A stretch of DNA of 63,969 bases, filler included, from Kipferlia bialata (taxonomy: Eukaryota): the NCBI GenBank assembly GCA_003568945.1. It is 3 parts of 3 records of this genome, joined end to end, with 100 filler letters (N's around TTAATTAATTAA, not from the genome) between each part and the next. Parts side by side here need not be neighbours in the genome. Positions count along the whole stretch, not along the records: positions 21,591 to 43,061 come from BDIP01000324.1; 2 more parts are not named here. One strand, given 5' to 3'. This document shows positions 21,491 through 60,692 of the stretch, piece after piece. A model generated the notes under the pieces. It did no database searches, had not been told where the DNA came from, and worked only from the letters and a program-made list of their open reading frames with translations. How positions within the stretch are numbered: the first letter of the stretch is position 1; each line of letters opens with the position of its first letter. The position numbers and the translations under genes are program-made.

Positions 21491-21590
21491 NNNNNNNNNN
21501 NNNNNNNNNNNNNNNNNNNNNNNNNNNNNNNNNNTTAATTAATTAANNNNNNNNNNNNNNNNNNNNNNNNNNNNNNNNNNNNNNNNNNNN
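21491..21590. other. artificial scaffold spacer (44N-TTAATTAATTAA-44N)
   Basis: Exactly 100 bp, with a central 12-mer that has stops in all six frames. An identical structure lies at 43062-43161. Confidence 0.95.
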
Positions 21591-37485: not shown

Positions 37486-39584
37486 ACAGGACCTGGGGGG
37501 TGAGGGTGAGACGCTGATTCCGAGTTAGTATCATGTCTTTCTCTCTACAAGGGGGTGGGTGGGGGGTGGGTGGTGGGGGTTGGACTAATATATAATACAT
37601 AACATAAGGTACCTTCTTAGATTGTCCTCTGATGTCTGCTGATGAGTGTGCGTCCCCCGTGCCAGACATGCACAGCAGACGGTTCAGGGTGGCATCATCG
37701 CCTGGGGTAAGAGATACAACTATACACAATGGAGTACAATACTATATAATGGATATATGAATATACGATGTAATGTGCCTGACATGCACAGCAGACGGTT
37801 CAGCGTGGCATCGTCACCTAACAGTGAGGAAAACAATACTACAAGTGATATATAAATATATTATACAGTAAATACTGTATACTAATGTACATGCAGAGCA
37901 GACGGTTGAGGGTGGCATCGTCACCTGAAGGTAAGTAATGAAACTGCATACAAGTATAAATACATGCAATATATACGAAGTATAATCTAGACTGTCTCTA
38001 TACCTATATGGGTGTCTAGCATTGTCTGCAGTGTTGTGCAGAACCCATGGTGCCAGAGAGTGGCACCCACGCCTTCCTCTCCCTCCCTGGATCCACCCTC
38101 CCTCCCTGCCTTGCGCTGCCTGGGGGGTTAGAGTGAATATATATATACAATAGTATACAGCAAGTATAGACCAATGCTTGCCGGCCTTGCGCTGCCTGGG
38201 GTGAGTGATAACCAAGAACACCTTATGCTGTATATGTCAACATGTGATTCGGCCAATACTTGCTACAAACTCACAAATACCACCCATTGGTATACCTGGC
38301 GATCTCTATCCCCCTCTTGAGTGACACTGGGAGTGTTGAGAAGGAGGGAAGGTACACGTATTATGTGAACTGAACACTATAATATATATATATACAATAA
38401 TACCTAGCTATCTCTATACCCCTCTTGAGTGACACTGGGAGTGTTGAGAAGGAGGGTAGGGGCAGGGAGGGGGCAGAGACGGAGGAGGCATAGACAGAGG
38501 CCGAAGGGGAGGAAGTCTGAGGTTAGGTAATATTGACTCTAACATCTAATATATGAGAAAAAATATATAGGCAGGAGGTATATACCGAAGTGGCAGAGGG
38601 TAAAGAGGTCTGAGGTTAGTTATGAACCATATATACTAATACATGTATAAATAATTATGGATATATAGAGGGAGGAGGCATATACCGAAGTGGCAGAGGG
38701 GGAGGAGGTCTGAGAAGTTAGAGTTAATGGAGTTCTTTGCACATATATCTTCTTGTATACTGATACACTACTCCATACCATGCCGACTGTGGGGGATGTT
38801 GCCGAGAAGAGCTCTCTCTCTCTCTGCTGGGCAACGGCACCATCCCTAAGGGGTTAGGTATATATTATCAAAACAATATATGCCATATACAATACCATTG
38901 ATAGAGATATCTGCTGGGCAACAACTCCATCCCTGCAACGTGAGAAATAATGGATAATATATCGAAAGTGGTATTGTAGAACACATCCATACCTGTCTCT
39001 ATCCATCTCTGCCTCATACCCAGTCTCGTCATCGATGCTGGATGGCTTCCTACAATGAGAACAGAATTAGTGTATTTATATACAACACAATTACTTCAAA
39101 ATTAGATATAAATAAAAATACACATATACGAGATAATACAACTGTCTTGTATATATATAAGTACATACATACCTCCTCCCTGCCAGCTCAGCCGTCACCC
39201 TCTCAGCGGTGGTTGCTGCCTCCAGGCGCTTCTTCTCTTCTGAAGGTTAGTTATCACATATATGGAACATATATAACGGTACATTGAAATATATACACAC
39301 ACACACATATACATATATACTATCTGCCTCCAGGCGCTTCTTCTCTTCTGTAGGTGAGTGAACAGAATATAAGTCTTCATATTCATATATATGTTTCATA
39401 TGAAAAGTACCAAAAAGAAAACGTGATTGAACTCTCAGCTCTGGCAGCCTCCAGCCGCTTCTCATCTCAAGAGTAAGAGATATATGTGAATAGAAACTCT
39501 CAAAATTGAATACTCCACTCACCCTCCCAGAATGCCCCGCCCTTCTTGCCCCTGGTGGTCTCCTTGACCTGGGGGGTTAGATTG

Positions 39585-39639
<55 letters not shown>

Positions 39640-41702
39640 ATAGAGGTCTACATATTAACTCTACTAATTCTTGCCCCTGGTGGTCCTTCCTTGACCTGGG
39701 GGGTTATTAGAACAAAATAAATCTTTCATTTATATAGAATATATATATATATATGTATATACCCATAGCCTGGTGGTCTCCTTGACCTGGGGGTCAGATG
39801 GATGCATATATATATAGAATATTATGAATGAAATTGATGTTAGGGTATGGTTGTATACAGAGTGTATATGCTGTGTTAAATGAACCTTTCCTGCAAGTGA
39901 TTCTGCCAGTTGACCATATATAGAGATACTCATACCCTGAGTCTGGCCAGTGTGGATAGTGGACTGGTCACTGCCTCCTTGGCAGATGGGTCAGTCTCTG
40001 CATCGGCCCTGGGGGACACAAGGCCTGGGGATGAGATGCTATACATTACTAATAATATATGATGGTGCATATATATATATATTGGGAAATGTATAGAACC
40101 CTCGGTCCTGGGGGAGACAAGGCCTGGGGATGAGATACTACATATAGAATATATACACTATATATACTAAACATATATATATAGTATTCATACTCTGAAG
40201 TATACAAAATATGTAGGTATTATACATCCACATGGGTATAATCGAGTATCTAGAAACATATTCCCTCAGCCCTGGGACACAAGGCTTACTGCTTAGGATA
40301 ATAGAACAAGACATACTTTAAACTCAGTGTGTGTAGCAACATAAAGTATGTGTTCTATTACATATGAGTGTATCAACTTACTACCTGTTGTGGGTGACAG
40401 TGTGGCTGGTGCTGCCATGGAGTCTGAGCGGGGGGTGATGCCCTTCTGCCTGGGAGGGGTTAGAAATATAGATATAGAGAGATAGGTATATATATAGATA
40501 TATATAGTACTAGATATATATATAATGACCGGGGGGTGATGCCCTTCTGCCTGGGGGGGTCAGATATATGTTTACATCAAAATATATAATCTCACTTACA
40601 TAAGTCTCTCTCACTCTCAATACTCATACATATATACCTAGGTCTCTGTCTGCCATGGATGCAGAGGGGGACAGGGTATACACCTATAGTATACACTTAA
40701 TAATACATACATATATATATATATATGTGTGTGTGTGTATACCTAGGTCTCTGACTATCTCTCTCTCTCTGATGCAGAGGGAGACAGGGAACATATATAT
40801 ATACAGTATATACATTATTATTCATACACTATATATATACCTTGGCCTCTGACTGTCTCTGTCTGATGCAGAGGGGGACAGAGTATATATATATAGTGTG
40901 TGTATATAACTGAATAGTGTATATTCCAGAATGTATATGCTATTAATATGTACCTAGGTCTCTGACTGTCTCTCTCTGATGCAGATGGGGACAGGGTGTG
41001 GGTAGGGGAGGTCACGTCGGTGCCTAGGGGTAAGTATATGCAAGATGGCACTAGTATAATGGACATATATACACCATAATATATGTCTCATTGAGGGTGT
41101 ATGTGAGGGTGTGGGTGGGGGAGGTCACGTCGGTGTCTGGTGGTAAGTATATACTATTGCAATAGAACAGTATTTGAAGGATATAGTATTGATATACTAT
41201 TATTAATTAATAACTCTTCGAGGGTGAATTTATATGTATACAACTATATATGTACATATACACTCTGTACACACCTTGCAGGGGAGTAGGTGCCTTTCCA
41301 GAGGTGGTACCCCATATATATACAGTATATACACCCCATAGAGTACTACATACACATATACATATCAATATATATAATGTGTTTCATACTGTACATACCT
41401 GGCAGGGGAGGGGGTGCCCTTCCTGAAGTGATACCCAATATATACATAGTATACCTACCACATACACATCCAGAGGTGAATGAAGTAATATACATATACA
41501 TGTAGTATATTATATATACCTGGCAGGGGAGGGGGTGCCCTTCCAGAGGTAGCGCGCCTGTTGCTCTTGATGCTACGCAGCACCAACTGCTTCAGAAGCC
41601 TAGGGTCAGTGATATACACTGAATACTAAAGTATGTCAAGTATGAAGGAATGTCATTATAGTGAACCTCTTCTCCTGGGGGGGGGGGGGAATACACACTC
41701 AA

Positions 41703-41738
<36 letters not shown>

Positions 41739-42577
41739 TATACCTCTTCTTCTGCGGGTGTTCCCAGCACTCTATAGTGAGTGTGTATTCAGATATATAT
41801 ATGTATATATATATGTACAGAGTAAGATACATATATATTAATGACAACATCCTATACCTCTTCTTCTGCGGGTGTTCCCAGCACTATAATACTGAGATAG
41901 ATGTACACATACATTGTAATATATATATATAGTACATATATTTATACACATACTGTACCTCTTCTTCTGGGGGTGTTCCCAGCACGTGATGCCCCTGGCT
42001 GTGTTGAAGTAGTACACATCGCCTGAGGAGTCCTAAGGTTAAACATATACATATATATATAGAGAGAGAGAGAGAGAATATGTGTTGAAGTAGTACACAT
42101 CGCCTGAGGAGTCCTGGTAGTAAGAATAGAGAGAGGGAGAGAGAATATGTGTTGAAGTAGTACACATCGCCTGAGGAGTCCTAGGAGGTAAGAATAGAGT
42201 GCGAGAGAGAGAGAGAGAGAGAGAGGGAGAGATAGAGAGAGAATATGTGTTGAAGTAGTACACATCGCCTGAGGAGTCCTAAGGTTAAACATATACAAAT
42301 ATATATATATACATATATAAAGAGAGAGAGAAAGAGAAAGAATATGTTGAAGTAGTACACATCGCCTGAGGAGTCCTGAGGTCTATAAATAGAGAGAGAG
42401 AGAGAGAGAGAAAATAATATACGCTAGTCAGAGAGTACTGCGGGTAATATAGTGGTGAGTGTATGGAGGGGGGGGGGGGAGTACTCTACCTTGTGGGATG
42501 CCCACCCTATAGGCAGTTCCAGTCCAAGTGCAGCCAGGGAGGCCTTCTCAACCAGGGGGTGCTCCCACTGTACCCTA
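36160..42577 (-). CDS. WW-domain + LIN1/CD2BP2 (U5-52K)-like protein (5' partial), about 17 exons
   Basis: The N-terminal exons give VQWEHP...LPIGWASHK|DSSGDVYYFNTARGITCWEHP (a WW domain preceded by the end of another). I traced a continuous frame through all exons to ...FEPATMADD...EDAWIDE...IIAVLKS|GETPRDGVRRLG...AFDAIISANLELL...NVEDENKERL, resembling the DaWLD / LxPGETVxxALRRLG / VYxxTRERL blocks of CD2BP2/Lin1. The model spans an N gap at 37158-37448. Confidence 0.65.
42001..42377 (-). repeat. five copies of acceptor + first 31-32 nt of the WW exon
   Basis: (g)tgttgaagtagtacacatcgcctgaggagtc-ct starts at 42001 (true exon), 42082, 42149, 42247 and 42345, separated by (GA)n/(TA)n. Confidence 0.95.
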
Positions 42578-43012
42578 GAGTGTTAGAGTATATATATATA
42601 TTTAGAGAGAGAGAGAGAGAGAGAGAGAGAAGGGGAGAGAGACAGGGAGTCCTTCTCAACCAGAGGGTGCTCCAACTGAACCCTAGAGTGAGAATAGAAT
42701 ATATACGTATATATATATACATATATACCCATATATATAGAGAAAGAGAGAGATAGATAAAGAGATAGATAGAGCAGCCGGGGAGACCTTCTCAACTAGG
42801 GGATGCTCCCACTGAGACCCTTCTTCACAAGGAGGATAGTTCGGTACACACCCATACACAGATATATATATATATATATATGTATATAGGTCGGTGACAC
42901 AGAGAGAGGGAGGGGGGGGGGGGAATATCAGTCACAATGAGACTTCCACTTCCACTGCTGCACTACACACACAACATCAGACAAGGTGGCAGGCAACTTG
43001 GCTAGATTACGA

Positions 43013-43061
<49 letters not shown>

Positions 43062-43161
43062 NNNNNNNNNNNNNNNNNNNNNNNNNNNNNNNNNNNNNNN
43101 NNNNNTTAATTAATTAANNNNNNNNNNNNNNNNNNNNNNNNNNNNNNNNNNNNNNNNNNNN
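43062..43161. other. artificial scaffold spacer (44N-TTAATTAATTAA-44N)
   Basis: Same 100-bp structure as 21491-21590. Confidence 0.95.
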
Positions 43162-43243: not shown

Positions 43244-44551
43244 ATGGCGGACGACAGTTCAGATGACAGTCTGCTCGGATTGGTAACAGGTACGATACTG
43301 TATAGATATATGTATGACATTTCTCTGTCTCTCTTTTGATATTCTTTGAATAGTGATACCCCCCGGCGTCACTTGTGCTTGCCTACGTCCTTCTTTCTCT
43401 CTCACCCCCTCCCTCCCGTCACTTACTCTCTTGTTGTCTTTGCTTCATTTCACTCTCACTCTGTCCCTCTCTCTCCATGTCCCTCTTATCTTCAACCAAT
43501 CTGAAATACTCTCTCTCTCTATATGTGTATGTCTCTTACCTTCAGCCAATCTGAACATCCCCAAGGAGGCACCCAAGAAGAAGAAGGTACTGATATATGA
43601 GTATTTGTATTTGCATTTGTTCCTGTTTATGTATTAGTATATATTGTAATATGTGTATATGTACGTATACATAGATACATCCCTAAGGAGACACCCAAGA
43701 AGAAGAAGGTATGTTGATGTGTATGGATATATATATATGTATTTATATATAGGTACCTATATACATGTATATGTGTGTATGTGTATAAGTATGTATATAT
43801 TGATATCAACATCCCCAAGGAGGCACCCAAGAAGAAGAAGGTATACACAGTGTATTTGTTGCGACTCCTGCCTTCTCCGTATCTCCCAACCCACCCCCAT
43901 CCCTCCCTCTCTCCCCCTCTTACCCCAGACCCCCAGTGTGTCTAGGCTTGATGCCGCTGTGGAGCAGCGTAGCAGCACGGTCCTCAGGGCCAAGGTATGA
44001 TTACATACGTTTATGTCATCTATATATAGCAGTGGATGATCCTTGGGCTAATGTGGGATGAAGTATATTTACTCTTGCTATGCCATACTATACCTTGACT
44101 TCACCCCCAGGGCCGGGCCATTTATATATATTTGTGTATATATATGAATATAGATCCCTATTTATACATATATATAGACATATGTATACCTCACCCCCAG
44201 GGCCGTGCCAAGGCCAAGGGCCAGAGGGACAAGGGGGCAGCAAGGGTGCAGAGGAGGTATGGATCATTCTCTATACATTTCACCATATTGTCATAAATTC
44301 TTATCCACGTATATACCCCACCCCAGGTCTGCCCGTCTGGCCAGGCTGAGTGAGACAGATGACTCATCGGACCTGTCCATAGAGAGGGAGACGAAGGGGA
44401 AGTCAGGTACGCGGTGTCTCTGTCCACTCTGTGCTCTCTCTCACACCCACTCCTTCTCTCTCTCACTCTTCATATTTCCTCACCCCCAGCCTCCACCCTG
44501 TCTGTGTCCCTGTCGGACATAGGGGCCAAGCAGGTACAATGCAGAGTGTAG

Positions 44552-44582
<31 letters not shown>

Positions 44583-44834
44583 TGTCATGTATATGTCGGA
44601 CATCGGGGCCAAGCAGGTGTGTTCTATGGTATTGTGTATAGAATATACGGTGTTATTATGTTTCTATATGCATCTGGGTCCCTGTCGGACATAGGGGCCA
44701 AGCAGATGCATTTATACTCTGGATATACAAGTATTTCTCTTTATGTAAAGTTACTAATTTTATGGTGCTACTATTAGTTCGATCTCTCTCTGTCTCTCAT
44801 TCCCAGGCCCCCACCACATCCAGCAGTGACAGTC

Positions 44835-44871
<37 letters not shown>

Positions 44872-45285
44872 GCCGCTCTCTCTCTCATTCATAGGCCCCA
44901 ACCACATCCAGCAGTGACAGCATCATGGAGATGGCCAGGTGAGGATGTATGATATATTGTTATATATATACTAAGAGAGAGAGAGAGAGAGAGAGAGTCC
45001 AGCAGTGACAGCATCATGGAGATGGCCAGGTGGGTGGAATATGTAGTATATCAGTAGGGTAGCTGTATATGTGAATTGACAGTCCCCAGGACCACCACCA
45101 CCCGGAACTGTCTCTTTCTGTCCATCTTTCCTATATTTGCATATACCCTCACCCCAGGCCCACCTCCACCCGCAAGGCCAAGGGCAAGAGGGCAGCACTC
45201 TTCCCAACACTGTCAACAGGTATGATATTGTGTTATGATATATGGTACACCATATCTACAATTACTCTCTTCATCCCATTGTGGG

Positions 45286-45322
<37 letters not shown>

Positions 45323-45864
45323 ACCCTTAATTCCAGCGTCCCCCGATGCCAAGAAGAAGGAGAGAGAGAGAAAGCAGCAGGAGGCTGCGAAGGAGAGGGA
45401 GCGCAAGGCTGCTGTAAGGTACGTATACGTATCTCTATATATATATATGTATATATATATAGAGAGACAGGTGCCTGTCTCTACTCATTGTTAATGGTGT
45501 GTAGTGTGTATTACTAAATAGTGTAATATGTGGCCTCAGAGGGAGACCTTCTCACCCCAGGGCTGAGAGACTGGCCAAGGCAGAGGCAATTAGGTATTAT
45601 ATATTATATATATATTATATATTTATTATATTTATGGATGTGTACCATGTATATTGTGGCTGTAATATATGTAAAATGTATACTGTTTGTATGTGTATTA
45701 CAGTCATACCTAGACTGGCCAAGGCAGAGGCAATTAGGTATGGGTGTAAATGTGCATTCATATAGCAGTGCTTGTGCAGTATTCAGATATTTTGAACTAG
45801 TTCGGTCATTTAGAGCGTTGTAGCGACTTTGTATTCGCATAGGTTTCTCACCCTGCAGGGCCCG

Positions 45865-45910
<46 letters not shown>

Positions 45911-46682
45911 GAATACATACATCTCACCCTGCAGGGCCCGTAAGAAGGCCGAGAAGGAGCAGCGTGCCGAGAGGGCCAGGGAGAGAGAGGCGCAGCGGCA
46001 GAGGGAGAAGGAGAGAGAGAAGGAGAAGGTGCCCTCTGACGACGAGGTGTCCTTCAGCCTCAGTGACCTGTTGACAGTGAAGGTCTCGGCAGGTATTAAT
46101 AATTATATTTGTATAGAGAGAGTGTATTTTTACTCTCTCTCTCTATATATATATATATGTACCCATGTCAACACTTTACTCACCCCAGCTGGCACAGGCT
46201 CCCCCTCCCCCTCCCACTCGTCCTCTGTCTCCTCCCGGTCCCAGTCACTGTCAGACTCAGTGTCACCATCAGTACCACCCGATGAGGTATAGACACACAG
46301 TATAATATATATAGTGTGTATAGTTTCATTACATTGTCTCACTTGCCAGGCAGAGAGGGAGAGAGAGAGACAGAGGGAAGAGGCTGACAGGGCCACTGCC
46401 GCAGCTATCGCCGCAGCATCTCGGCCACCACCTAGGAGGTAATGTACTCTCTCTCTCTCTCTCTCCCCCTCTCTAGCCCCTCATTGCAGGAGTAGCAGGA
46501 TAGACAAGGCCCGTGCCCGTGCCTCTAGACCACCCTCCCCAGAGGCAGAGTCATACTCATACTACAGCACATCCACAGAGGTATTGACTCGCGCATCTAT
46601 GTCAACTCATATCTATTTACCCTCCGTGTATACAGTGGTTTTACAAGAGTGTGTCTACTCTCTCTGTCTCGTATTTCTGTCC

Positions 46683-46718
<36 letters not shown>

Positions 46719-47032
46719 ATTTCCTTCCCTCTCCCCCTCTCACCCTCAGTCTGACCGCCCCCCCACCGCCCGTGAGATCAGGGCCCAGCAGAGGGAGGAG
46801 CAGAGGGAGAGGGAGAGGTATGGGTATGTATATATATATATGTCTATAGTATATACATCTGTCTCTCTCTCTATATATATGTTGTATATATACCAGCAGA
46901 GGGAGGAGCAGAGGGAGAGGGAGAGGTATGTACATCATTGACATGGGTCCGGTACACGCTCTAGTACATACCATGTGTCTCCTTTCATATACGTACCCTT
47001 ACCCTCAGGAGTGGCCTCCCCCCTGCCAAGAG

Positions 47033-47072
<40 letters not shown>

Positions 47073-47109
47073 ATATATATACCCCCTCACCCTCAGGAGT
47101 GGCCTCCCA

Positions 47110-47142
<33 letters not shown>

Positions 47143-48136
47143 TACATATATATGTGTATATCTCACCCCTCAGGAGTGGCCTCCCCCCTGTCAAGAGGGA
47201 CAGGTCAGTGCCAGAGGCAGAGTCAAAGGTATACTTCTACATACAACACCCATCATTCAATACCCTATATATCCCCCAGCAAGGCCTCCAGTCCCGTAGT
47301 CTCTCTCTCCCTCTCTCTATTATATGACCACTATGTCAGTGATTGTACAGTGTATATCTGACCCCCAGCCCCCCAGCAAGGCCTCCAGTCCCGTGGTGCC
47401 CAAGGATGCACCCAAGGGGAAGGGCAAGGGGAAGGTATAAGTATACAGTGTCGTATTCATACAGATGTTGTATGCCATTAACCCTAGGCCCCTTCCCCTG
47501 TACAGGCCAAGAGGGAGACAGAGAGGGAGAGGCCTGTCCAGGCTGCCAAGAGGAGACCACCAGCTAGGAAGAGGGGGAAGGTACAGTATTACATGTAGTT
47601 TGAGAGCGATAGACATACTATTCCTCTACTCTACTCTACCTTCACCCCAGGACGTTGAAGAGACCGTGTCTGTCTATGTATACTGTATGTTAATACACTA
47701 TATCTTCTTTATCTCCTAAATTCCTCCCTTCACCCCAGGACGTTGAAGAGACCGTCGCCCCTTCCTCTCCCATAGTGCCCCCGGCCATGGCTAGGTGTGT
47801 GGTATATAATGTGTATTATATATAGTGTATATATACGATATATCGTAGTGCCACCGTCCATGGCAAGGTACTCTCTCCCTCCAGTTCATGGGGTGTATAT
47901 ATTTACTCTGTTTACCCCCAGGCGTGTTGCCAAGGCTCGCGCAGAGAGGGAGAGGGAGAGGGAGAGAGAGAGAGCCAAGCAGAAGGTCAGGACCAGGGAC
48001 ATGGGCATAGGGACCAAGCCTGCAGAGACTAAGGTATATACACACATGTGTATACTATTATGTATATGTATATGTATACTTTGGGTCCTCTCTCTCTCCC
48101 CCTCACATCTACAGAATGTGTCCTCTGTGGCCGTAC

Positions 48137-48180
<44 letters not shown>

Positions 48181-49544
48181 ACATATATATATAGACTTAT
48201 CTTTCCATCTCCCTCCCCCCAGCATGTGTCCTCTGTGGCTGTCCCATTGGGTGTGGACAGGGAGAGATACTACAGGATGGTGGCTGAGGTACGGCTATTT
48301 ATGTACCATGTCAGAACTCTACTTGTGTTGTTGAGTACTGTGTGTGGCCGTTCATTACGTCCTGATCTTAGGGCTTATGAGTATCGTGTATTCATTATAT
48401 ACTCTCTCTCCCCACTCATTCCTAGGACATGGCCCTCCCCCACTCCCTGGCCCTGTCCTTGTAGTATATTAAATATAGTATAGATAGTACACTATACATA
48501 TATTATATATCTGTGTATCCTAACCCTCAGGACATGGCCCTCCCCCACTCCCTGGCCCTGTCTCTGTCACAGCATGTCACACCCCTGGGCCAGAGGGCTA
48601 GGAAGGTGTGCTAGTGTTGGAGTATTGTGTATATCTATATTTGTGTAGGTTAGTATACATACACCATATATATATATCACACCCCTGGGCCAGAGGGCTA
48701 GGAAGGTGTGTGTTGTGGATCAGTATTCATACATAATCATCTGTGCCCTGTGTGTATATATATACTCATCTATCTCTGATACCCCAGGACAAGTGCCCTG
48801 TGTCCAAGTTCCAGCTTGGGGTGTGGAGACTGCAGAAGGAGCAGGTATATATTAGTGTGTGCATTGATTATCTGATACTATATATGTACATTGGGAGATT
48901 GACAGAGTGCGGGAGACAGAGAGAGATAGAGTATGTGTGGAGACTGCAGGAGGAAATGGTATGGATAGAGAAGTGTGTACTCATATATATATAAATATAT
49001 ATATATACTTCTCACCCTAGATCATGCACTCCCTCGAGAACAGACTGGCCCTCCTATCCCCCTCCCTGGTGCATCTGGCCAAGGCAACACTCTGCCCAGG
49101 TATATATATTTATGTGTATACATGTATGTATGCAAGTATATGTATATACTGTATGAGTATATATATACATATCTATTCCCCTCCCTGGTGCACCTGGCCA
49201 AGGCAACACTCTGCCCAGGTATTAATATATATGTGTATACATGTATGTATGCAAGTATATGTATATACTATATGAGTGTATATATATATATATATATATA
49301 TATCTTTCCCCCTCCCTGGTGCACCTGGCCAAGGCAACACTCTGCCCAGGTACTGCTGTATGTATACATAGTGTATATATATATATATATACTCAGGTAT
49401 TGCCACATATACATCGGGTGTATATCTGTCTTTCTATCCATCTGGCCCTGCTGCTGCTGTATATATGTGTGTATATGTTTGTGTAAATATCTCTGTGGAT
49501 GGACGCCAACCCCGGGCCTGATCTCTGCCCACTCCGACCGCCTA

Positions 49545-49589
<45 letters not shown>

Positions 49590-52500
49590 ATGTTCATATA
49601 CCCCTCTCTTACCCCAGGCCTGATCTCTGCCCACTCTGATCTCCTTGGCTATGCCCCTCCCCTGCACCAGCTGGCAGGGCATGGCGGGAATGAGGTAATT
49701 ATATGTATATATATGTATATACACCCACCCATACATAGATACCTAACTGAAAGTGGGAAGATTGGGGTAGTGGCGGGAATGAGGTATTGACAGGATACTT
49801 CTATCTCTTTATATTGAGGAGGGAATGTGGTATCTGTCTCTCTCTCCCTCTCTCCCCCTCTACCCCCTTATTCCAGCTGACCAATGCCCTGTCCACCCTC
49901 GAGACACACGGCATAGAGATGCTAGGTACTATACTGGATATACATATATATATATATAGATATATATATAGATATGAGGTTATATCAATACATGTGTGTG
50001 TATTATGCCCTGTCCACCCTCGAGACCCATGGCATNNNNNNNNNNNNNNNNNNNNNNNNNNNNNNNNNNNNNNNNNNNNNNNNNNNNNNNNNNNNNNNNN
50101 NNNNNNNNNNNNNNNNNNNNNNNNNNNNNNNNNNNNNNNNNNNNNNNNNNNNNNNNNNNNNNNNNNNNNNNNNNNNNNNNNNNNNNNNNNNNNNNNNNNN
50201 NNNNNNNNNNNNNNNNNNNNNNNNNNNNNNNNNNNNNNNNNNNNNNNNNNNNNNNNNNNNNNNNNNNNNNNNNNNNNNNNNNNNNNNNNNNNNNNNNNNN
50301 NNNNNNNNNNNNNNNNNNNNNNNNNNNNNNNNNNNNNNNNNNNNNNNNNNNNNNNNNNNNNNNNNNNNNNNNNNNNNNNNNNNNNNNNNNNNNNNNNNNN
50401 NNNNNNNNNNNNNNNNNNNNNNNNNNNNNNNNNNNNNNNNNNNNNNNNNNNNNNNNNNNNNNNNNNNNNNNNNNNNNNNNNNNNNNNNNNNNNNNNNNNN
50501 NNNNNNNNNNNNNNNNNNNNNNNNNNNNNNNNNNNNNNNNNNNNNNNNNNNNNNNNNNNNNNNNNNNNNNNNNNNNNNNNNNNNNNNNNNNNNNNNNNNN
50601 NNNNNNNNNNNNNNNNNNNNNNNNNNNNNNNNNNNNNNNNNNNNNNNNNNNNNNNNNNNNNNNNNNNNNNNNNNNNNNNNNNNNNNNNNNNNNNNNNNNN
50701 NNNNNNNNNNNNNNNNNNNNNNNNNNNNNNNNNNNNNNNNNNNNNNNNNNNNNNNNNNNNNNNNNNNNNNNNNNNNNNNNNNNNNNNNNNNNNNNNNNNN
50801 NNNNNNNNNNNNNNNNNNNNNNNNNNNNNNNNNNNNNNNNNNNNNNNNNNNNNNNNNNNNNNNNNNNNNNNNNNNNNNNNNNNNNNNNNNNNNNNNNNNN
50901 NNNNNNNNNNNNNNNNNNNNNNNNNNNNNNNNNNNNNNNNNNNNNNNNNNNNNNNNNNNNNNNNNNNNNNNNNNNNNNNNNGTATTATGCCCTGTCCACC
51001 CTCGAGACACACGGCATAGAGATGCTAGGTACTATACTATATATATGGATATATATATATATACATTTATATGTGTATATGAGTGGGGGTATTATGCACT
51101 GTCCACCCTCGAGACACACGGCATAGAGATGCTAGGTACTGTGTGTAGTGTACATACGTCTCCTCAGACATACATTATTCTTATGTGTGTGTGTATTATG
51201 TCCTATACCCTCGAGACACAGACATAGAGATACCTCTTGGGTATATATATCAGATGAATATATTCATATCATCTTCTAGACTCTGTCTATACCCTCTGAC
51301 CCCAGGTGGTGCCAGGGTTGGCAGACAGCCACTGCCGGAGGGGCCAACAGAGGGAGACGTGTACAGGTGGGTGTATGTGTATATAGTATATTAGGAGACG
51401 TGTATAGGTATAGTAGAGTGGGGTGCATGTATATCCATATACACAATATACTATATAGTATATAGTGTATACTGCCGGAGGGACCAACAGAGGGAGACGT
51501 CTACAGGTGGGTGTAGACACATATATAGATACTGTCAATATATATATGTATATATACTCTCAACTGCATATATTGCAATCTCATATGCATGAGGGAGACG
51601 TGTACAGGTATACAGCATATGGACATGCATACCCCCACCTGTAACAAGTCGTCTCTCACCCTCTCTCCCCCACCCCCACCCCCAGACTGGGCCTCTTGAT
51701 CCTGGCCCTGGTCACACACCTCAGGGTGGGGCAGGTATGGAGATGTAGATACACCGCACGTATACATTGTATACGTGCTCATGTACATTCCCTGTACTTG
51801 TACCCTTATTCTCCGTTGGACCCTTATTCTCTGCTGCACTCTTATTCCCAGGCTGCTGAGGAAGAGGCCCAGCGTGAGATTGAGAGAGAGATAGAGGCAG
51901 ACAGTGAGACTGGAGATGAGGCCAATGAGAGTGTGCCTGTATCCCCATGGCAGGCTGTGCTGGAGAAGTCGGGGGTGAGTACACACACTCATATGTCAAT
52001 GATAAACTGTATCAACAATTGTAATTAGGTAATAGTATCAATATATACATGTGTCATCTACTCTCTCTCTCTCTCTTTCTCTCTCTCTTACTGTAGGCCC
52101 TCCTAGACCGTGTCTCCCCCCTGATCACCTCTCTCTCTCACTCCAGCCCCTCCTAGACCGTGTCTCCCCCCTGGTCACCTCCCTGCACCAGAGACACCAG
52201 AGGCAGAAGAGATACACAACACTGGCATCTGGTGTCTCTACTCCTAATGAGAGTGACAGTGGGAGTGTGCCTACACCCATGTCCACCCTGCACGCCCTGG
52301 CAGACCTGGGAGTATGGGTGTCAAGGTAAACATATGTACTATGCTATGTTATGTATATATATATATATTTATATACACCCATGTCCACCCTACATGCCCT
52401 GGCAGACCTAGGGTCTGGGTGTCAAGGTACACAATGTACTATTGTTTACAACTGGAGTGTATGTGTGTGTAGTATGTATGCATCCACACGTCACTGACCC

Positions 52501-52772
52501 CAGGTACCCAGGATCCCTGCTGTGCCAGGAGAGTGTGCTAGGTAGGGGTATAGTGATACTGTATTTCAATACTTGTCTAGGGATACCTCATACCTACATC
52601 TCTCTCTCTATCTCTCTGTCCCTCTCTATAGTCTAACCCCAGGCTCCCTAGACCTCTACCCCCACTACCCTGCATCTAGGCTCAACCCTAAGACAGAGAG
52701 AGTGGGGGAGAGAGAGGGAGAGAGCACTCAGAGAGAGGCTCTGGAGTTCTCACTCCTCTTCAGCAAGGTATA

Positions 52773-52809
<37 letters not shown>

Positions 52810-53906
52810 ACCCTTATTCTAGGTCGAGACCGCCAAGGTTGCTGAGAAGCAGAGAGAGAGAGAGAGGCGTCTGGAGGCAGAGGCCAAGGTGCAGAAGAGT
52901 GGGATGCCCATATTTGGACAGGTGAGTGTAATTGGGGAGTCACATAGAGGGAGAAATGTACTGGTTATCTATAGCTCGTTAAATTTACTCTGTGTCTCTC
53001 TCACCCTTAGGAGGAGTCGGATTCCCTGACGTCTGAGGTAGAGAGGCCCACCAAGACCTGTGATGCCCCTGCTGCTAAGGCACCTGTGAGCACTAGCAAC
53101 CCATCTACCATGGAGGTGGAGGTGGATAGGGAGGGAGAGAGAGAGGCAGAGGCAGAGGCAGAGGAGGAGGCTGGGTCAGAGTCCTCTGTGTCTCAGCCGG
53201 TGCCCAAGGCACTAGGGGTGGAGATGGAGGGAGAAGCAGAGAGAGAGAGAGAGGCAGAGAAGGAGGTGGAGGCAGAGGAAGAGGTACAGATGGAGACAAC
53301 ACCCGTCGCTGTCGGTGAGGCCGAGAGACAGACTGAGAGGGAGCCAGAGGGGGAGAGGCACCTTCGCAGGTATAGTGTCTCCTTCATCCATGTGTATGCA
53401 TCTGTATCAGTATTTATATATCTGGCCTCACCCCTCAGGTTCTTCTCCCTCCCCCCCTCCCTCGTGTCCTGCCTCTCTCTCTCTCCCCCTCTCCCCCTCT
53501 CTCTGCCTCTCTCTCTCTCTCTCCACTCACCCCTCAGGTTCTTCTCCCTCCCCCCCTCCCTCGTGTCCTGCCTCACCTCCTGGGTCTCAGTCACATACCC
53601 CTCCCTGCCCACCCCTGAGGCACACTCGCTGGCCAAGGCACTCGAGGAGAGGTATGGTACATGGCCGTCTCCATGCACCTTCTCTCTCTCTCCCCCCCTC
53701 TCTCAACGTATATAACCCTCAGATTCGGCCGTCTGCACACCCCCGAGCCCACCCTGTCCGAGGAGGGAAGGGAGGCCATACTGCAGGAGGTACATATATA
53801 TAAAAATACATATATATATATATATATGTAGTATTAGTATATATACGTATACCCCGAGCCCACCCTATCAGAGGAAGGGAGGGAGGCCATACTGCAGGAG
53901 GTATGG

Positions 53907-53938
<32 letters not shown>

Positions 53939-56900
53939 GCATATGTGTCAGTTAGTACTATTAGTATATATGCGTATACTCCCGAGCAGACTATGTCTTA
54001 AGAAGGGAGGGAGGCCATACTGCAGGAGGTATGTTTTATATAGATAGATCGGTTGAGATACAGAGAGTGTATATAGAATATACTCTATATATATATACTA
54101 TTCTAACCCCGTAGGTTGAGTCTGTTGCCCTTAGACAGGACGCAGAGGCAGTGGAGGACAGGGAGAAGCTGGAGGTAGGAGTATATGTGTATTGATAGAC
54201 TTGCGTTGATACTCATACACATGAGTACCCTATAGATGTATGCATATATATTTGTGTTTATATTCTCATATGGCCCCTCCTAACCGCAGGCCCTCCGTGT
54301 TGAGCTGACATCTGAGGTACATGAATACAGTAATATGTCGATGCTGCCTTTGTATGTATACTTGGTATATATGTACATACTGTAACCATTAGGCCCTCCG
54401 TGTTGAGCTGACGTCTGCCGAGGAGGAGGAGAGAGAGGGTCTCAAGGAGATTCAGGAGAGACAGGCCGAGAGGGAGAGAGAGAGAGAGAGGAAGCAGAAG
54501 GAGAAGGAGGAGAGAGAGAGAGAGAGCGATGCTGTCAAGGCTGAGGGTAACCCTGGGGTAGTAGTAGCTATCGAGGGGGAGAAGAGAGAGGGAGAGGGAG
54601 AGAAGGTTGAGACCCCCGCTGCTACTGAGACCTCTGCTATAGCAGCACCTGATGTACCTGCTGTACCTGAGGTTGACAGTGAGACAGAGGCAGAGGTGGA
54701 GAGAGAGAAGGAGAGGGAGAGGGAGATGGCAGTCAAGACAGCCAGGCTCAAGGTACATGGCTCTGTCTGTGTATGTATCTGTGTATGTAAATATACACAC
54801 TTAGGTCCTGCTCTCTCTCGCTATATATACAAGTATGAGTAGATATACATCCTTACCCCCTAGGCCCAGGTCTCTGTCCGTCAGACCCTTCTGTCCAGTG
54901 GGCCCAGTCTGCAGCAGAGGGTGGTGCGTATGCATGTATATATATATAGACTATACATGTATGCATGTGTATAGAGAGAGAGAGAGTAGCCAGTGGGCCC
55001 AGTCTGCAGCAGAGGGTGGTGCGTGTATGTGTGTATATAGAGTATAGAGGAACATTTGATCTATTCTGGTGTTCTTCTGGTATAGTATACTATTCTCTCT
55101 CGCTCTCATCCTAGGCCACCCTCCCCCTCCCCCCCTCTGGCTCCCTCCTGTCCCTGTCCCACATGTCTCATTCTCTCTCTCTCTCTCTCTCTCACTCTCT
55201 CACCATATAGGCTACTCTACCTCTACCCCCCTCTGGCTCCCTGCTGTCCCTGTCACATATGTCCGAGAGGGCACTGCTCACAGAGACACTGGCCAAGCTA
55301 GAACCTGTTCTTGTCCCAGGTTAGAATATATGTATTTGTGTGTCTATGTATATATATACCTGTCTAACTCCCAGTGTCCCAGGAGACTGACTGGCTGGGC
55401 CTCACCACGGCACTGCAGAGGCTCTCTCAGGCATGTCTCTCTCTACTCTATATATTGTATCTCTACCTATGTGTATCTACATATTCCCTCTTACTCCAGC
55501 CCCATGCCAAGGCCATCCCTCTCTCTCTCTCTGTCTCTCTCTATACTCAATATGTATATATATGCTATTATATAGTTGTTATGTATTCATACCCTCTGAC
55601 CCCCAGCCCCATGCCAAGGCCATCCCGGCACCCAGGGCCATATTCGGAAAGGTATGGATGGAATCATAAGAATTATTTCCATTGTGTCTACCAACATACA
55701 TATTTCTACTGTGTATTGTACTAATTCTGTATTCTTGTGTACCATGTACGCATCCCTCACCCCCAGGTGATGAGGGACCAGTATCGGTATGTATCAATCT
55801 ATAAATGTATATCCATATAAGTACCCCTCCCTCACCCCCAGGTGATGAGGGGCCGTGGCAGGGTCGGAGAGGCAGAGGTCATAGCCAGACAGGTATGTTT
55901 ATGTATGAGTATATGTAGAGGAATATATCTATATATAGAGAAGAACAGAGAGAGAGAGAGAGAAAGAGAGGGTGGGAGAGGCAGAGGTCATAGCCAGACA
56001 GGTGGGTGTGTATAGTGAGAGTATGTACTCANNNNNNNNNNNNNNNNNNNNNNNNNNNNNNNNNNNNNNNNNNNNNNNNNNNNNNNNNNNNNNNNNNNNN
56101 NNNNNNNNNNNNNNNNNNNNNNNNNCGAGAGAGAGACAGAGAGAGAGGGTCGTAGAGGCAGAGGTCATAGCCAGACAGGTATGTATGTAGTAGTACGATA
56201 ACATAAAGAAGCGGATCTGCTATCTTAGTCCAATGCTCTCTCGCATATCTATCTATATATATAATGTGTTTATACTGCAACTCTCACCCTCCAGGCCGTC
56301 CTGTACCGCTATGGGTGCCGTCTCCATCCGTCCAGTGCACTCAGCACATACATCCTGTGTCTCAGTGGAAAGCAGGTACTAGTGTATAAAATGTATATAT
56401 ATATATAGTGTCCTCAGCACATACATCCTGTGTCTCAGTGGCAAGCAGGTACAAGTATATGGACATTGTACACAGTATCTGCACACATATTATGGTGTTC
56501 AGTGACAAACACGCTCTCTCACACCCACCTATTCTCTATCTATCTGTTGGTTCTTCCCTCCCCCTCTCTCTCCCTCTGTCTGACCCCCCAGGGCTGGAAG
56601 AAGCTAGTGGCCAGGTTTGGTAGTCAGGCACTGACACAGACTCACCTACAACAGGTATATAGACAGATAGATATAGAGAGTAGATGTATATAAGTATGGG
56701 CATCATCCAGTATCCAGTCCCTCTTTCTTTCCCTATCTATTCCCTCACCCCAGTTCTACAACTGGATCATGCAGTACCCAGCTGCCATCATGGTCATAGC
56801 CACCTGGGAGATACTGGATAGGTGGGTATATATATGTGTGTATAGTCTGGCTCTTGCTCCCAGTGAGTCGGTCAAGAAGGCCTGACTCTCACTCTCTCTC

Positions 56901-57401
56901 TCTTTCTATACCCTAACCCCAGTGCGTCTGAGTCTGTCAAGAAGGGCATGACCCTGACAGCAATGCAGGAGGCACACAGCGAGAGGTGTGTAGATATATA
57001 TATATCTACATGTATTGGAGCAAATCTCTCTCTCTCCCTCTCTCCCCCACCCCAGGTCTGCCTCCAAGCCATCCTCGCCCACCAAGGGCAGCCCAGGGTA
57101 CGGTACAGTTAGCTATCATGCAATACATGCAATACCACTCCTCATATAGTGTATGTGCACTGATACTATTATCCTCATCCCAGCTATGCTATACCACTCC
57201 TATATATTCTGTATATATTCTGATATTACTGTCCTCACCCCCAGCACCGACCAGGACGGGGACGTGTCCATGGGTGGAGAGGGTGAGTGCATCTGTCTGT
57301 GATATATGTATATGTGTGTGTATATAATAGGGTGAGTGTGGTATGGCGCATTATACATGACACGGTTCATACATTGTAGTGTATATGGAATATACATAAT
57401 C

Positions 57402-57438
<37 letters not shown>

Positions 57439-60400: not shown

Positions 60401-60652
60401 CATGGAGAATACATTGTATTTCGTATATACACTTGCTTATGTCAGGGACCTTCTACAGACCTCGTTAGTAATATATACTCAATCCCTCCCCCTCTCTCCT
60501 TGTATGTATGTATACACTTACCCTCAGAGACCTACTTCAGACCGCGTGTCTCCTCCCCTCCACCGATGATGAGGGGGAGAGGGAGAGGGCCAGTGACATC
60601 AGAGAGATGCACACCACACTCACCCTCTTCAACAAGTGTCTGAGGTGGGTAT

Positions 60653-60692
<40 letters not shown>

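What the first reader, a model, noticed from the sequence alone, without database searches (positions are those of the whole stretch)
42001..42377. Four near-perfect decoy acceptors in front of a WW-domain exon
Seen: four intronic copies match the first 31-32 nt of the exon exactly, each with its own AG. The copy at 42247-42297 also reproduces the true intronic context (taaggttaaacatataca), so it is identical to the real acceptor over about 50 nt. Using any decoy would run the WW domain into (CT)n junk. Inference: local sequence cannot specify this 3' splice site, which implies cross-exon definition (pairing with the donor about 75 nt on), re-splicing, or heavy NMD clean-up.
Basis: partly seen in the sequence, partly recalled or inferred. 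Interest (0 to 1): 0.75.

Follow-up and report, generated by a model that had tools for sequence, protein, structure and literature searches.

The report
Repeated decoy splice sites, Kipferlia intron
The start of a WW-domain exon of the protist Kipferlia bialata, together with its splice signal, is copied four times in the intron in front of it, a repeat type already known from lancelets and human genes; the one assembled transcript uses only the genuine copy, likely because only that copy is paired with a donor site across a complete short exon.

Summary
The minus-strand WW exon (42032..41959, 74 nt) has its AG plus first 31-33 nt repeated exactly at four upstream intronic places (5 exact 33-mers, 0 expected). 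One copy is identical over 52 nt.

The organism is Kipferlia bialata. A spliced 4995-nt contig of run X2 joins 13 GT..AG exons into an open 339-codon frame and uses the true acceptor. Every decoy use would give a premature stop.

The case is not isolated.
- The same exon's donor edge is copied 2-3 times downstream.
- 11 of 12 complete introns of this gene hold copies of a flanking exon edge with its splice signal (29 copies).
- Intron length = 108 + 98 x copies, r = 0.92.
- About 30 more such families lie in the plus-strand genes at 43-64 kb.

This is the known "mirage" or splice-junction minisatellite type (amphioxus, PMC3087553; human F7 IVS7, PMC1557585). This scan has noted it several times on invertebrate DNA. 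New here are a protist host, a fused branch-point/acceptor signal and a very high density.

How the true site is chosen is inferred: most likely cross-exon pairing. Re-splicing is excluded by sequence. Clean-up by nonsense-mediated decay (NMD) is untested.

The parts
41959..42032 (-). True WW-domain exon (74 nt), second half of a WW domain
   Evidence: The X2 spliced contig covers 41958-42031 next to 42489-42576. It is flanked by AG and GT, and the joined frame is open. Pfam WW at E = 4.9e-7.
42033..42042 (-). True acceptor module: branch-point-like TTAAC, then CTT, then AG
   Evidence: YTNAY motif with the branch A 6 nt from the exon start. 13 of 13 true acceptors of the gene have such a module at 6-10 nt.
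42081..42115 (-). Decoy acceptor d1: AG plus 33 exon bases, with its own CTTAC branch motif just upstream (to about 42124)
42148..42183 (-). Decoy acceptor d2: AG plus 33 exon bases, with its own CTTAC branch motif just upstream
   Evidence: X1 contigs at 42126-42177 and 42148-42183 have depth about 706-708.
42246..42297 (-). Decoy acceptor d3: 52 nt identical to the true junction (TTAAC branch motif, AG, 33 exon bases)
42345..42377 (-). Decoy acceptor d4: AG plus 31 exon bases, weak branch motif (TTTAT, 10 nt)
42033..42489 (-). Intron (457 nt) holding the four decoys, separated by (CT)n and (TA)n tracts on the sense strand
41852..41885 (-). Decoy donor c1: last 27 exon bases (26 of 27 identical) plus GTATAG
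   Evidence: X1 contig 41856-42029 links it to the true exon. The shared 34-mer has depth 637, about twice single copy.
41738..41771 (-). Decoy donor c2: last 27 exon bases (26 of 27 identical) plus GTATAG
   Evidence: X1 contigs carry its own flanks at depths 237 and 337.
41658..41681 (-). Weak third donor copy (14 of 15 exon bases plus GTTCAC)
   Evidence: score 18, equal to the best control score
42490..42574 (-). Upstream exon: end of a first WW-like motif and start of the second (..LPIGWASHK)
42640..42821 (-). Two diverged acceptor copies of the upstream exon's start (29 of 32 bases identical each)
37613..42574 (-). 13 transcript-supported exons. 11 of 12 complete introns hold 1-4 copies of a flanking exon edge with its splice signal (20 acceptor and 9 donor copies, counting the two in the incomplete intron upstream of the first exon).
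43554..63151 (+). About 30 further junction-copy families (18 donor-type, 12 acceptor-type) in plus-strand genes
   Evidence: Exons here are inferred from sequence only; no RNA was laid.

Best explanation
This is a young 'mirage'-type splice-junction repeat: a segment of about 67-98 nt spanning the intron end and the first 33 bases of the WW exon stands five times head to tail. It most likely arose by tandem duplication and unequal exchange, and the four upstream copies are likely ignored by the spliceosome because they are orphan half-exons without a donor partner.

Shown:
- The five exact copies.
- The use of the last, exon-contiguous copy in an assembled spliced transcript.
- The same architecture at 11 of 12 complete introns of the gene, with intron length rising by about 98 nt per copy.

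Inferred:
- Origin. Tandem duplications of about 100 bp are frequent in this genome. With exons of 46-116 nt and base introns of about 108 nt, most such duplications span exactly one junction. Those that duplicate a whole exon or disturb the reading frame are purged by selection.
- Homogenisation. The identical 33-35 nt cores next to diverged spacers suggest recent amplification or gene conversion against the selected exon, as described for amphioxus mirage clusters.
- Choice of site. Sites are paired across the short exon, so the acceptor nearest upstream of a real donor and the donor nearest downstream of a real acceptor win. In older copies, decay of the optimal CTAAC branch motif may add to the discrimination.
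For: - Exact copies: (5 of 5 exact, 0 expected).
- Unit structure: TRF reports period 67, 2.3 copies, 91% matches at 42059-42212.
- Transcript: the X2 contig has 11 listed CT..AC (that is, GT..AG on the minus strand) joints and adjacent record positions for 41958-42031 and 42489-42576. The DNA run X1 shows 0 contigs with these joints. The joined 13 exons give 339 codons with 0 stops.
- Gene-wide pattern: 20 acceptor copies at 11 of 13 exons and 9 donor copies at 4 of 12. The best scores of the same queries in non-adjacent introns were at most 15 (acceptor) and 18 (donor), against 15-47 for the copies.
- Independent assembler: X1 contigs of 852, 1187, 989 and 982 nt reproduce decoy-bearing introns with 0 differences.
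- Intron length = 108 + 98 x copies, r = 0.92, p = 2.7e-5, n = 12. Spacing is 105 +/- 19 nt, n = 29.
- Orphan status: 12 of 19 decoy acceptors, including all 4 of the finding, have no G|GT[AG] before the next acceptor copy. 8 of 9 decoy donors have no branch-point..AG module behind the previous donor copy.
- Exon parts are 15-57 nt and never more than 63% of the exon (P about 5.5e-5 under a uniform model that ignores the limit set by unit length).
- CTAAC is present in 7 of 13 true acceptors against 2 of 20 decoys, Fisher p = 0.013.
- Precedent: mirages at both boundaries with concerted evolution and undisturbed splicing (PMC3087553, passages of section 16). Silent identical 5' pseudo-sites in human F7 IVS7 (PMC1557585, abstract and passages).
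Against: - Only contigs were available, not raw reads. Contigs drop rare variants, so use of decoys at a low or even moderate level followed by decay is not excluded.
- Exon definition has not been shown in any metamonad. It is inferred here from geometry and from the tolerance of the decoys.
- 7 of 19 decoy acceptors do have a G|GT[AG] 24-91 nt downstream, so 'orphan' is not absolute.
- d3 is identical to the true site over 52 nt, and d1 and d2 have good branch motifs. For this young array the branch-motif decay argument does not apply.
- Identical cores (0 differences in 31-33 nt, four times) next to acceptor flanks that differ at about 6 of 15 positions, judged by eye, do not fit simple neutral decay. 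They need conversion or very recent re-amplification, which is not shown.
- The tool warns that X1 may be the window's own source. Much of 42190-42480 was masked as repeat by the tool. The number of identical copies therefore rests on a short-read assembly.
Confidence: 0.6

Rival explanations
1. The decoys are used at an appreciable rate. The resulting messages, all with premature stops, would be removed by nonsense-mediated decay or nuclear surveillance, so the assembled transcript shows only survivors.
For: Every decoy use gives a premature stop: 4 of 4 acceptor decoys and 3 of 3 donor decoys. d1-d3 have intact branch-point-plus-AG modules. Contigs cannot show rare isoforms (tool text).
Against: 29 intact-looking decoys in one 5-kb gene would make correct splicing of all 12 introns rare if each decoy competed freely. 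The one 4995-nt contig is correctly spliced at all 12 junctions within the stretch laid (11 listed joints and one shown by adjacent record positions). No contig with a decoy junction was listed. NMD in this organism was not examined.
Confidence: 0.2
2. An intron-based oriented scan, as proposed for human F7, picks the first donor, and a separate rule picks the last acceptor. No cross-exon pairing is involved.
For: In F7 IVS7 the most upstream of identical donors is chosen by a 5'-to-3' scanning-type mechanism (PMC1557585, abstract). All 9 donor copies here lie downstream of the used donor.
Against: A 5'-to-3' scan would reach the decoy acceptors first, yet the last one is used. Each decoy brings its own branch motif 6-11 nt from its AG (18 of 20), so scanning from a branch point cannot choose among them.
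Confidence: 0.1
3. The four exact copies, or their number, are an artefact of short-read assembly across microsatellites.
For: The copies are exact and separated by (GA)n and (TA)n tracts. The only K. bialata assembly I found in print was built from paired-end short reads with SPAdes (PMC5874029, methods passage). The X1 contigs break inside the array.
Against: - Each copy has its own unique flanks.
- A second assembler's contigs from run X1 contain the decoy-specific flank at about 1.8 times single-copy depth.
- For the donor copies there is a 34-mer at 637 against 362-386, plus separate contigs for each flank.
- Diverged copies elsewhere in the gene lie inside 852-1187-nt X1 contigs with 0 differences.
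- Diverged copies (for example 29 of 32 identical) cannot come from mis-assembly of one locus.
Confidence: 0.07
4. The copies have a function, for example as decoy exons that tune splicing efficiency, or as a reservoir for new exons and introns as modelled for amphioxus globins.
For: AG is kept in 19 of 20 acceptor copies and GT in 9 of 9 donor copies. The Ebner et al. model has mirage units becoming exons (PMC3087553).
Against: Retention of the dinucleotides fits the copies' youth: exon-part identity is 516 of 561 = 92%, so about 17 of 20 AG would be expected to survive. No true exon resembles another (best score 14 against a shuffled maximum of 13). Optimal branch motifs are depleted in decoys. 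Every tested use gives a stop.
Confidence: 0.05

Closest known systems
[quoted passage not shown] Read: abstract and passages of section 16 of PMC3087553.
   Same: Head-to-tail copies of an exon edge with its splice signal lie in the adjoining intron. Both 5' and 3' boundaries are affected. Many units keep AG or GT. Regular splicing is not disturbed. Identity within clusters is 81-100% with concerted evolution. Unit sizes overlap (10-160 bp there, 67-162 nt here).
   Different: The host here is a metamonad protist, not an animal. Arrays are short (1-4 copies), separated by microsatellites and partly decayed. They occur at 11 of 12 complete introns of one gene and account for most intron length. 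The acceptor copies carry a fused branch-point-plus-AG module. Allelic or somatic length instability, shown in amphioxus, could not be tested here.
Human exon/intron-boundary minisatellites with silent 5' pseudo-sites: F7 IVS7 (37 bp, 5-9 repeats), 6-16, CBS IVS13, LAMIN B2 (100 bp), PDGF (81 bp). Read: abstract and passages of PMC1557585.
   Same: The first unit spans the exon-intron boundary. Identical donor sites follow the authentic one, and only (or mainly) the most upstream is used. This matches donor copies c1 and c2 here and the 18 donor-type families at 43-64 kb.
   Different: All the human cases are on the donor side. The finding itself is on the acceptor side, where a 5'-to-3' scan predicts the wrong site. 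The mechanism was tested by 50 constructs in F7; nothing was tested experimentally here.
Intron gain by tandem duplication of an exonic AGGT (Rogers model; ATP2A1, PMC3265369, passages read; potato RdRp, PMC4974935, search listing only; Gao and Lynch 2009, recalled, since the paper is not held)
   Same: A short intragenic tandem duplication yields duplicated splice signals, and the redundant copy is spliced out so the protein is unchanged.
   Different: In that model the new intron's 5' part copies the downstream exon and its 3' part copies the upstream exon. Here acceptor copies hold the downstream exon's start and sit upstream of the true acceptor, and donor copies are the mirror image. An existing intron is lengthened; no new intron is created.
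Fused branch-point/3' splice-site introns of metamonads: Giardia VCTRACACRCAG, Spironucleus RCTAACAARHTAG, Trichomonas ACTAAC (PMC6679479, passages)
   Same: 13 of 13 true acceptors here have YTNAY (7 of 13 CTAAC) with the branch A 6-10 nt from the exon start.
   Different: The spacer here is variable and C-rich, and K. bialata is intron-rich. Because the branch point travels with each copy, every decoy is a self-contained 3' signal.

Membership tests
Mirage / splice-junction minisatellite | Local head-to-tail direct repeats on one strand | tested here: met
   5 exact 33-mers at spacings of 81, 67, 98 and 97 nt, 0 expected. TRF period 67.
Mirage / splice-junction minisatellite | The unit holds both exonic and intronic sequence, including the splice signal | tested here: met
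   Each unit holds (CT)n/(TA)n intron sequence, a branch-like motif, AG and 31-33 exon bases.
Mirage / splice-junction minisatellite | One terminal unit is the authentic boundary used in the mRNA | tested here: met
   The X2 contig places 41958-42031 next to 42489-42576 at adjacent record positions. The frame is open.
Mirage / splice-junction minisatellite | The extra units stay out of the mature message | tested here: inconclusive
   True for the one assembled contig. Contigs cannot exclude minor isoforms.
Mirage / splice-junction minisatellite | Length instability between alleles, and concerted evolution of units | not testable with these tools
   There is no second haplotype and there are no long reads. 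Identical cores beside diverged spacers fit homogenisation but do not show it.
Rogers-type intron creation by duplication of AGGT | The intron's 5' part copies the downstream exon's start and its 3' part copies the upstream exon's end | tested here: not met
   The pattern is the uncrossed one at all 15 families of the gene.
Introner / transposon-derived intron sequence | Dispersed copies at other loci, terminal repeats, short target-site duplication | tested here: not met
   Junction queries score at most 15-18 in non-adjacent introns. The spacer tails have no other copy in the window at 3 or fewer mismatches apart from generic acceptor-like strings. Only this 64-kb window could be searched.
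Recursive splice site (ratchet point) | The acceptor is directly followed by a regenerated GT donor | tested here: not met
   All five copies read AG|GACTCC.
Tandem alternative (cassette or mutually exclusive) exons | Each copy has both splice sites and keeps the frame | tested here: not met
   Copies hold 15-57 nt, at most 63% of the exon. The 4 decoys have no G|GT[AG] before the next copy. Their use gives stops.
WW domain (Pfam PF00397) | Profile match above the curated cut-off | tested here: met
   30.1 bits against 26.9, E = 4.9e-7, model positions 10-31 of 31 on the exon alone. The first 9 positions lie in the upstream exon (..LPIGWASHK) and were not scored jointly.

The most novel reading that the evidence does not exclude
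Genome-wide, Kipferlia bialata introns grow mainly by serial duplication of their own splice junctions. Its reduced spliceosome ignores tens of thousands of intact, self-contained decoy sites by a strict cross-exon 'shortest exon' rule. This would make the genome a natural library of splice-site competition experiments. It would also be a case where intron size, and perhaps intron-richness in a lineage whose relatives have fewer than ten introns, is driven by one simple mutational process.
Probability: 0.35. Interest if true: 0.7.

Novelty: new member of a known kind. Interest (0 to 1): 0.45.

Why it matters
Duplicated, sequence-identical splice sites are the cleanest natural test of how a spliceosome chooses between equal signals. 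The published cases are single genes of humans (donor side) and a handful of amphioxus genes.

Here the same architecture fills nearly every intron of several neighbouring genes, on both the donor and the acceptor side. [quoted passage not shown] The copies explain most of the intron length in the gene studied (r = 0.92).

If this holds genome-wide, it bears on two points. One is how the 124,912 introns of this species (PMC5874029) reached their present size while its parasitic relatives keep fewer than ten. The other is whether exon definition exists outside animals and plants.

For annotation it is a practical warning. Gene finders will meet many perfect-looking false splice sites in this genome.

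Tried and rejected
- **Whole genome:** none is held, so no genome-wide census was possible.
- **Sequencing runs:** no RNA holder is listed on record. X2 is only guessed to be RNA. I take its contig as transcript-derived because it skips 11 GT..AG introns that the X1 contigs contain.
- **Read cover:** X1 gave no cover over about 42190-42480 and 42522-43050, and the tool masked repeats at 41650-41822, 41919-41943, 42033-42088 and two more places. No conclusion is drawn from these blanks.
- **First read-laying run:** it failed on short pieces between N runs. I repeated it on the N-free stretch.
- **Re-splicing or seamless stepwise removal:** rejected, because no regenerated GT exists and no position in the repeat has AG before it and GT after it.
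- **RNA structure hiding the decoys:** the 481-nt intron RNA folds better than shuffles (z = -2.98). The stem pairs two (UA)n tracts and leaves d1-d3 in an open loop, with the true site and d3 in equivalent positions, so it does not discriminate.
- **Known RNA family in 37449-43061:** none.
- **Transposon or introner origin:** rejected.
- **Exonisation of copies:** no exon-exon similarity above shuffled controls.
- **Selection to keep AG or GT in decoys:** not supported. 19 of 20 and 9 of 9 are about what 92% identity predicts.
- **Annotated protein of the plus-strand gene:** a search for it to get its exons found nothing (5286 candidates, none at E <= 1e-10; only 176-2000 residues were searched). 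The plus-strand families therefore rest on sequence composition only.
- **Gao and Lynch 2009:** could not be read.
- **Literature for prior report in this organism:** 'Kipferlia' + 'introner' gave 0 papers. 'Kipferlia bialata' + 'introns' gave 28 papers, of which 20 were listed; I read two in passages, and neither mentions junction repeats in those passages. The genome paper has 0 occurrences of 'duplicat' and of 'microsatellite'. The mirage/minisatellite search (18 papers, 15 listed) listed no protist paper by title. Supplements were not examined.

Full report
**What is there**

The gene lies on the minus strand. Read in sense, the intron before the exon contains five head-to-tail units. Each ends in AG followed by GACTCCTCAGGCGATGTGTACTACTTCAACA(CA).

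- The DNA search finds the 33-mer (AG plus 31 exon bases) exactly five times, at 42002, 42083, 42150, 42248 and 42345. None was found in 100 shuffles, even with three mismatches allowed.
- Three decoys match 33 of 33 exon bases and the fourth 31 of 31.
- The copy at 42246-42297 equals 42000-42051 over 52 nt.
- Only the last unit runs on into the rest of the exon (42032..41959, 74 nt). That exon translates to DSSGDVYYFNTARGITCWEHPQKKR and matches Pfam WW at E = 4.9e-7, above the curated cut-off.

**Organism and transcript**

A 2376-codon open frame elsewhere in the window is 100% identical to a protein that its source names as a hypothetical protein of Kipferlia bialata. This is a free-living relative of Giardia. 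Its published genome has 124,912 GU-AG introns (PMC5874029, passages).

No whole genome is held for the window. Two coded runs hold the stretch. Laid on 37500-43050, run X2 gives a 4995-nt contig that skips 11 stretches with CT..AC ends, which is GT..AG on the minus strand. The DNA run X1 shows none of these joints and instead has contigs running through the introns.

The piece 41958-42031 sits at record positions directly next to 42489-42576. The true acceptor, not a decoy, is therefore joined to the upstream exon. After I set each boundary to GT..AG, the 13 exons join into 339 codons without a stop. The upstream exon ends in ..LPIGWASHK, which supplies the first strand of the WW domain. Use of any of the four decoy acceptors or three decoy donors gives a premature stop.

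**The finding is one case of many**

The same exon's 3' edge with its GT is repeated downstream at 41852-41885 and 41738-41771 (26 of 27 exon bases identical). A weak third copy lies at 41658-41681.

I searched each true junction against its own intron.

- 11 of 13 exons have copies of their acceptor edge upstream (20 copies).
- 4 of 12 exons have copies of their donor edge downstream (9 copies).
- The same queries score at most 15 (acceptor) or 18 (donor) in non-adjacent introns, against 15-47 for the copies.
- Eleven of the 12 complete introns hold at least one copy. Only the shortest (123 nt) has none.
- Intron length is 108 + 98 x copies (r = 0.92, p = 2.7e-5). Successive copies are 105 +/- 19 nt apart, n = 29.

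In the plus-strand genes at 43-64 kb, about 30 more families show the same layout. For 18 of 18 donor-type families the first copy has the exon-like (highest-GC) upstream flank. For 11 of 12 acceptor-type families the last copy has the exon-like downstream flank. In the twelfth, the first copy is followed by 95% simple repeat. Those exons are inferred from sequence only.

The intron-poor first 36 kb of the window has almost no such repeats.

**Are the copies real DNA?**

- Diverged copies lie inside X1 contigs of 852-1187 nt that match the window with 0 differences.
- For the donor copies, a shared 34-mer has depth 637 against 362-386 for single-copy neighbours, and separate contigs carry each copy's own flank.
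- For the exact acceptor decoys the contigs break, as expected for repeats longer than the word size. Two contigs do hold a decoy-specific flank at depth about 706-708.

The tool warns that the best DNA holder may be the window's own source, and much of the array was masked as repeat. The number of identical copies is therefore not independently confirmed. The only assembly of this species I found in print used short paired-end reads and SPAdes (PMC5874029). I put an artefact at about 7%.

**Splice signals**

All 13 true acceptors have a YTNAY motif whose branch A lies 6-10 nt from the exon start (7 of 13 CTAAC). This is the fused branch-point/acceptor design described for Giardia, Spironucleus and Trichomonas (PMC6679479). 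Each copied junction therefore carries its own branch point.

- 18 of 20 decoys keep a YTNAY at 6-11 nt, and 19 of 20 keep AG. All 9 donor copies keep GT.
- With 92% identity in the exon parts (516 of 561), this retention is about what youth predicts. I see no sign of selection to keep them.
- The optimal CTAAC is rarer in decoys (2 of 20 against 7 of 13, p = 0.013). This hints that older decoys are weakened or that true sites are maintained.
- In the finding's own array this does not help. The true site and d3 share TTAAC, and d1 and d2 have CTTAC, which two true sites of the gene also use.

**How the right site is most likely chosen (inferred)**

After a junction duplication, the copy that preserves the message is necessarily the one contiguous with the rest of the exon. 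What is informative is that one 5-kb gene tolerates 29 such decoys.

- The decoys are half-exons. They carry 15-57 exon bases and never more than 63% of the exon (P about 5.5e-5 under a uniform model that ignores the limit set by unit length).
- 12 of 19 decoy acceptors, including all four here, have no G|GT[AG] before the next acceptor copy.
- 8 of 9 decoy donors have no branch-point..AG module behind the previous donor copy.
- Exons (46-116 nt) are shorter than introns (123-504 nt).

Pairing of sites across the exon explains both the donor and the acceptor side with one rule. A 5'-to-3' scan of the F7 type (PMC1557585) explains only the donor side. Re-splicing is excluded, because every copy reads AG|GACTCC. 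Decay of mis-spliced messages remains possible and untested.

**Origin (inferred)**

With base introns of about 108 nt and exons of about 75 nt, a random tandem duplication of about 100 nt will usually span one junction. Duplications that include a whole exon or lie within coding sequence would be removed by selection.

The identical cores next to spacers of three kinds do not fit plain neutral decay. The TTAAC type is shared by the true unit and d3, the CTTAC type by d1 and d2, and d4 is of its own kind. This pattern suggests unequal exchange or conversion, as reported for amphioxus clusters (PMC3087553). No other source of the spacers exists in the window. No true exon looks derived from another.

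**Comparison with what is known**

Notes of this scan pointed me to the term 'mirage' and to two papers, which I then read in part.

[quoted passage not shown] They occur at both boundaries, have units of 10-160 bp, show concerted evolution and leave splicing undisturbed.
- PMC1557585 lists human boundary minisatellites (F7, 6-16, CBS, LAMIN B2, PDGF) with silent identical donor pseudo-sites.

The present case meets the structural features of that kind. It fails those of Rogers-type intron creation, introners, recursive sites and tandem alternative exons. The scan has found this kind before on invertebrate DNA.

I found no report of it in Kipferlia or any protist in the searches, which cover open-access papers and preprints only.

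**Verdict**

The kind is known. The host lineage, the self-contained branch-point-plus-acceptor decoys and the density are new. Interest is moderate.

Noticed in passing
window 12672-19802 (-): A single 2376-codon open frame without introns, matching a 2564-residue K. bialata hypothetical protein at 100% identity over 95% of the 577-residue query part. It holds about six internal repeats of roughly 390 residues and a hydrophobic stretch near the C-terminus. No Pfam family was found for the 934-residue part that I scanned.
   Followed up: partly
window 1-36000 versus 37000-63969: Gene architecture contrasts sharply within one window. Long intron-free open frames fill the first 36 kb. Genes with 46-116-nt exons and microsatellite-filled introns fill the rest. 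Junction copies occur almost only in the second part.
   Followed up: partly
window 21491-21590, 43062-43161; also 37158-37448, 50036-50981, 56032-56125: Two gaps have the odd form 44 N, 12 bases, 44 N (100 in all). Several gaps are flanked by long G or C homopolymer runs (for example 43015-43061, 47 C). These look like contig ends of a short-read scaffold.
   Followed up: no
window 37613-42574 (-), intron ends: K. bialata acceptors show a branch motif fused to the 3' splice site (CTAAC or a variant, a 3-7 nt C-rich spacer, AG, usually followed by G). Donors are weak, mostly AG|GTA. I did not see this motif described for the species in the passages I read.
   Followed up: partly
window 42020-42500 (-): The intron RNA folds better than shuffles (z = -2.98). 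This is mainly due to an 18-bp stem between two (UA)n tracts that would loop out three decoy units.
   Followed up: partly
window below 37611: The X2 contig continues for 3800 nt beyond 37611 towards lower coordinates, across the N gap at 37158-37448 and into a region that also has long plus-strand open frames (33538-35949). It is either a long 3' part of the WW gene or a contig merging convergent transcripts.
   Followed up: no
window 49054-49291 (+): A very young donor-side unit: 119 nt twice at 93% identity, including the intronic spacer. Whole units, not just exon edges, are therefore duplicated.
   Followed up: partly
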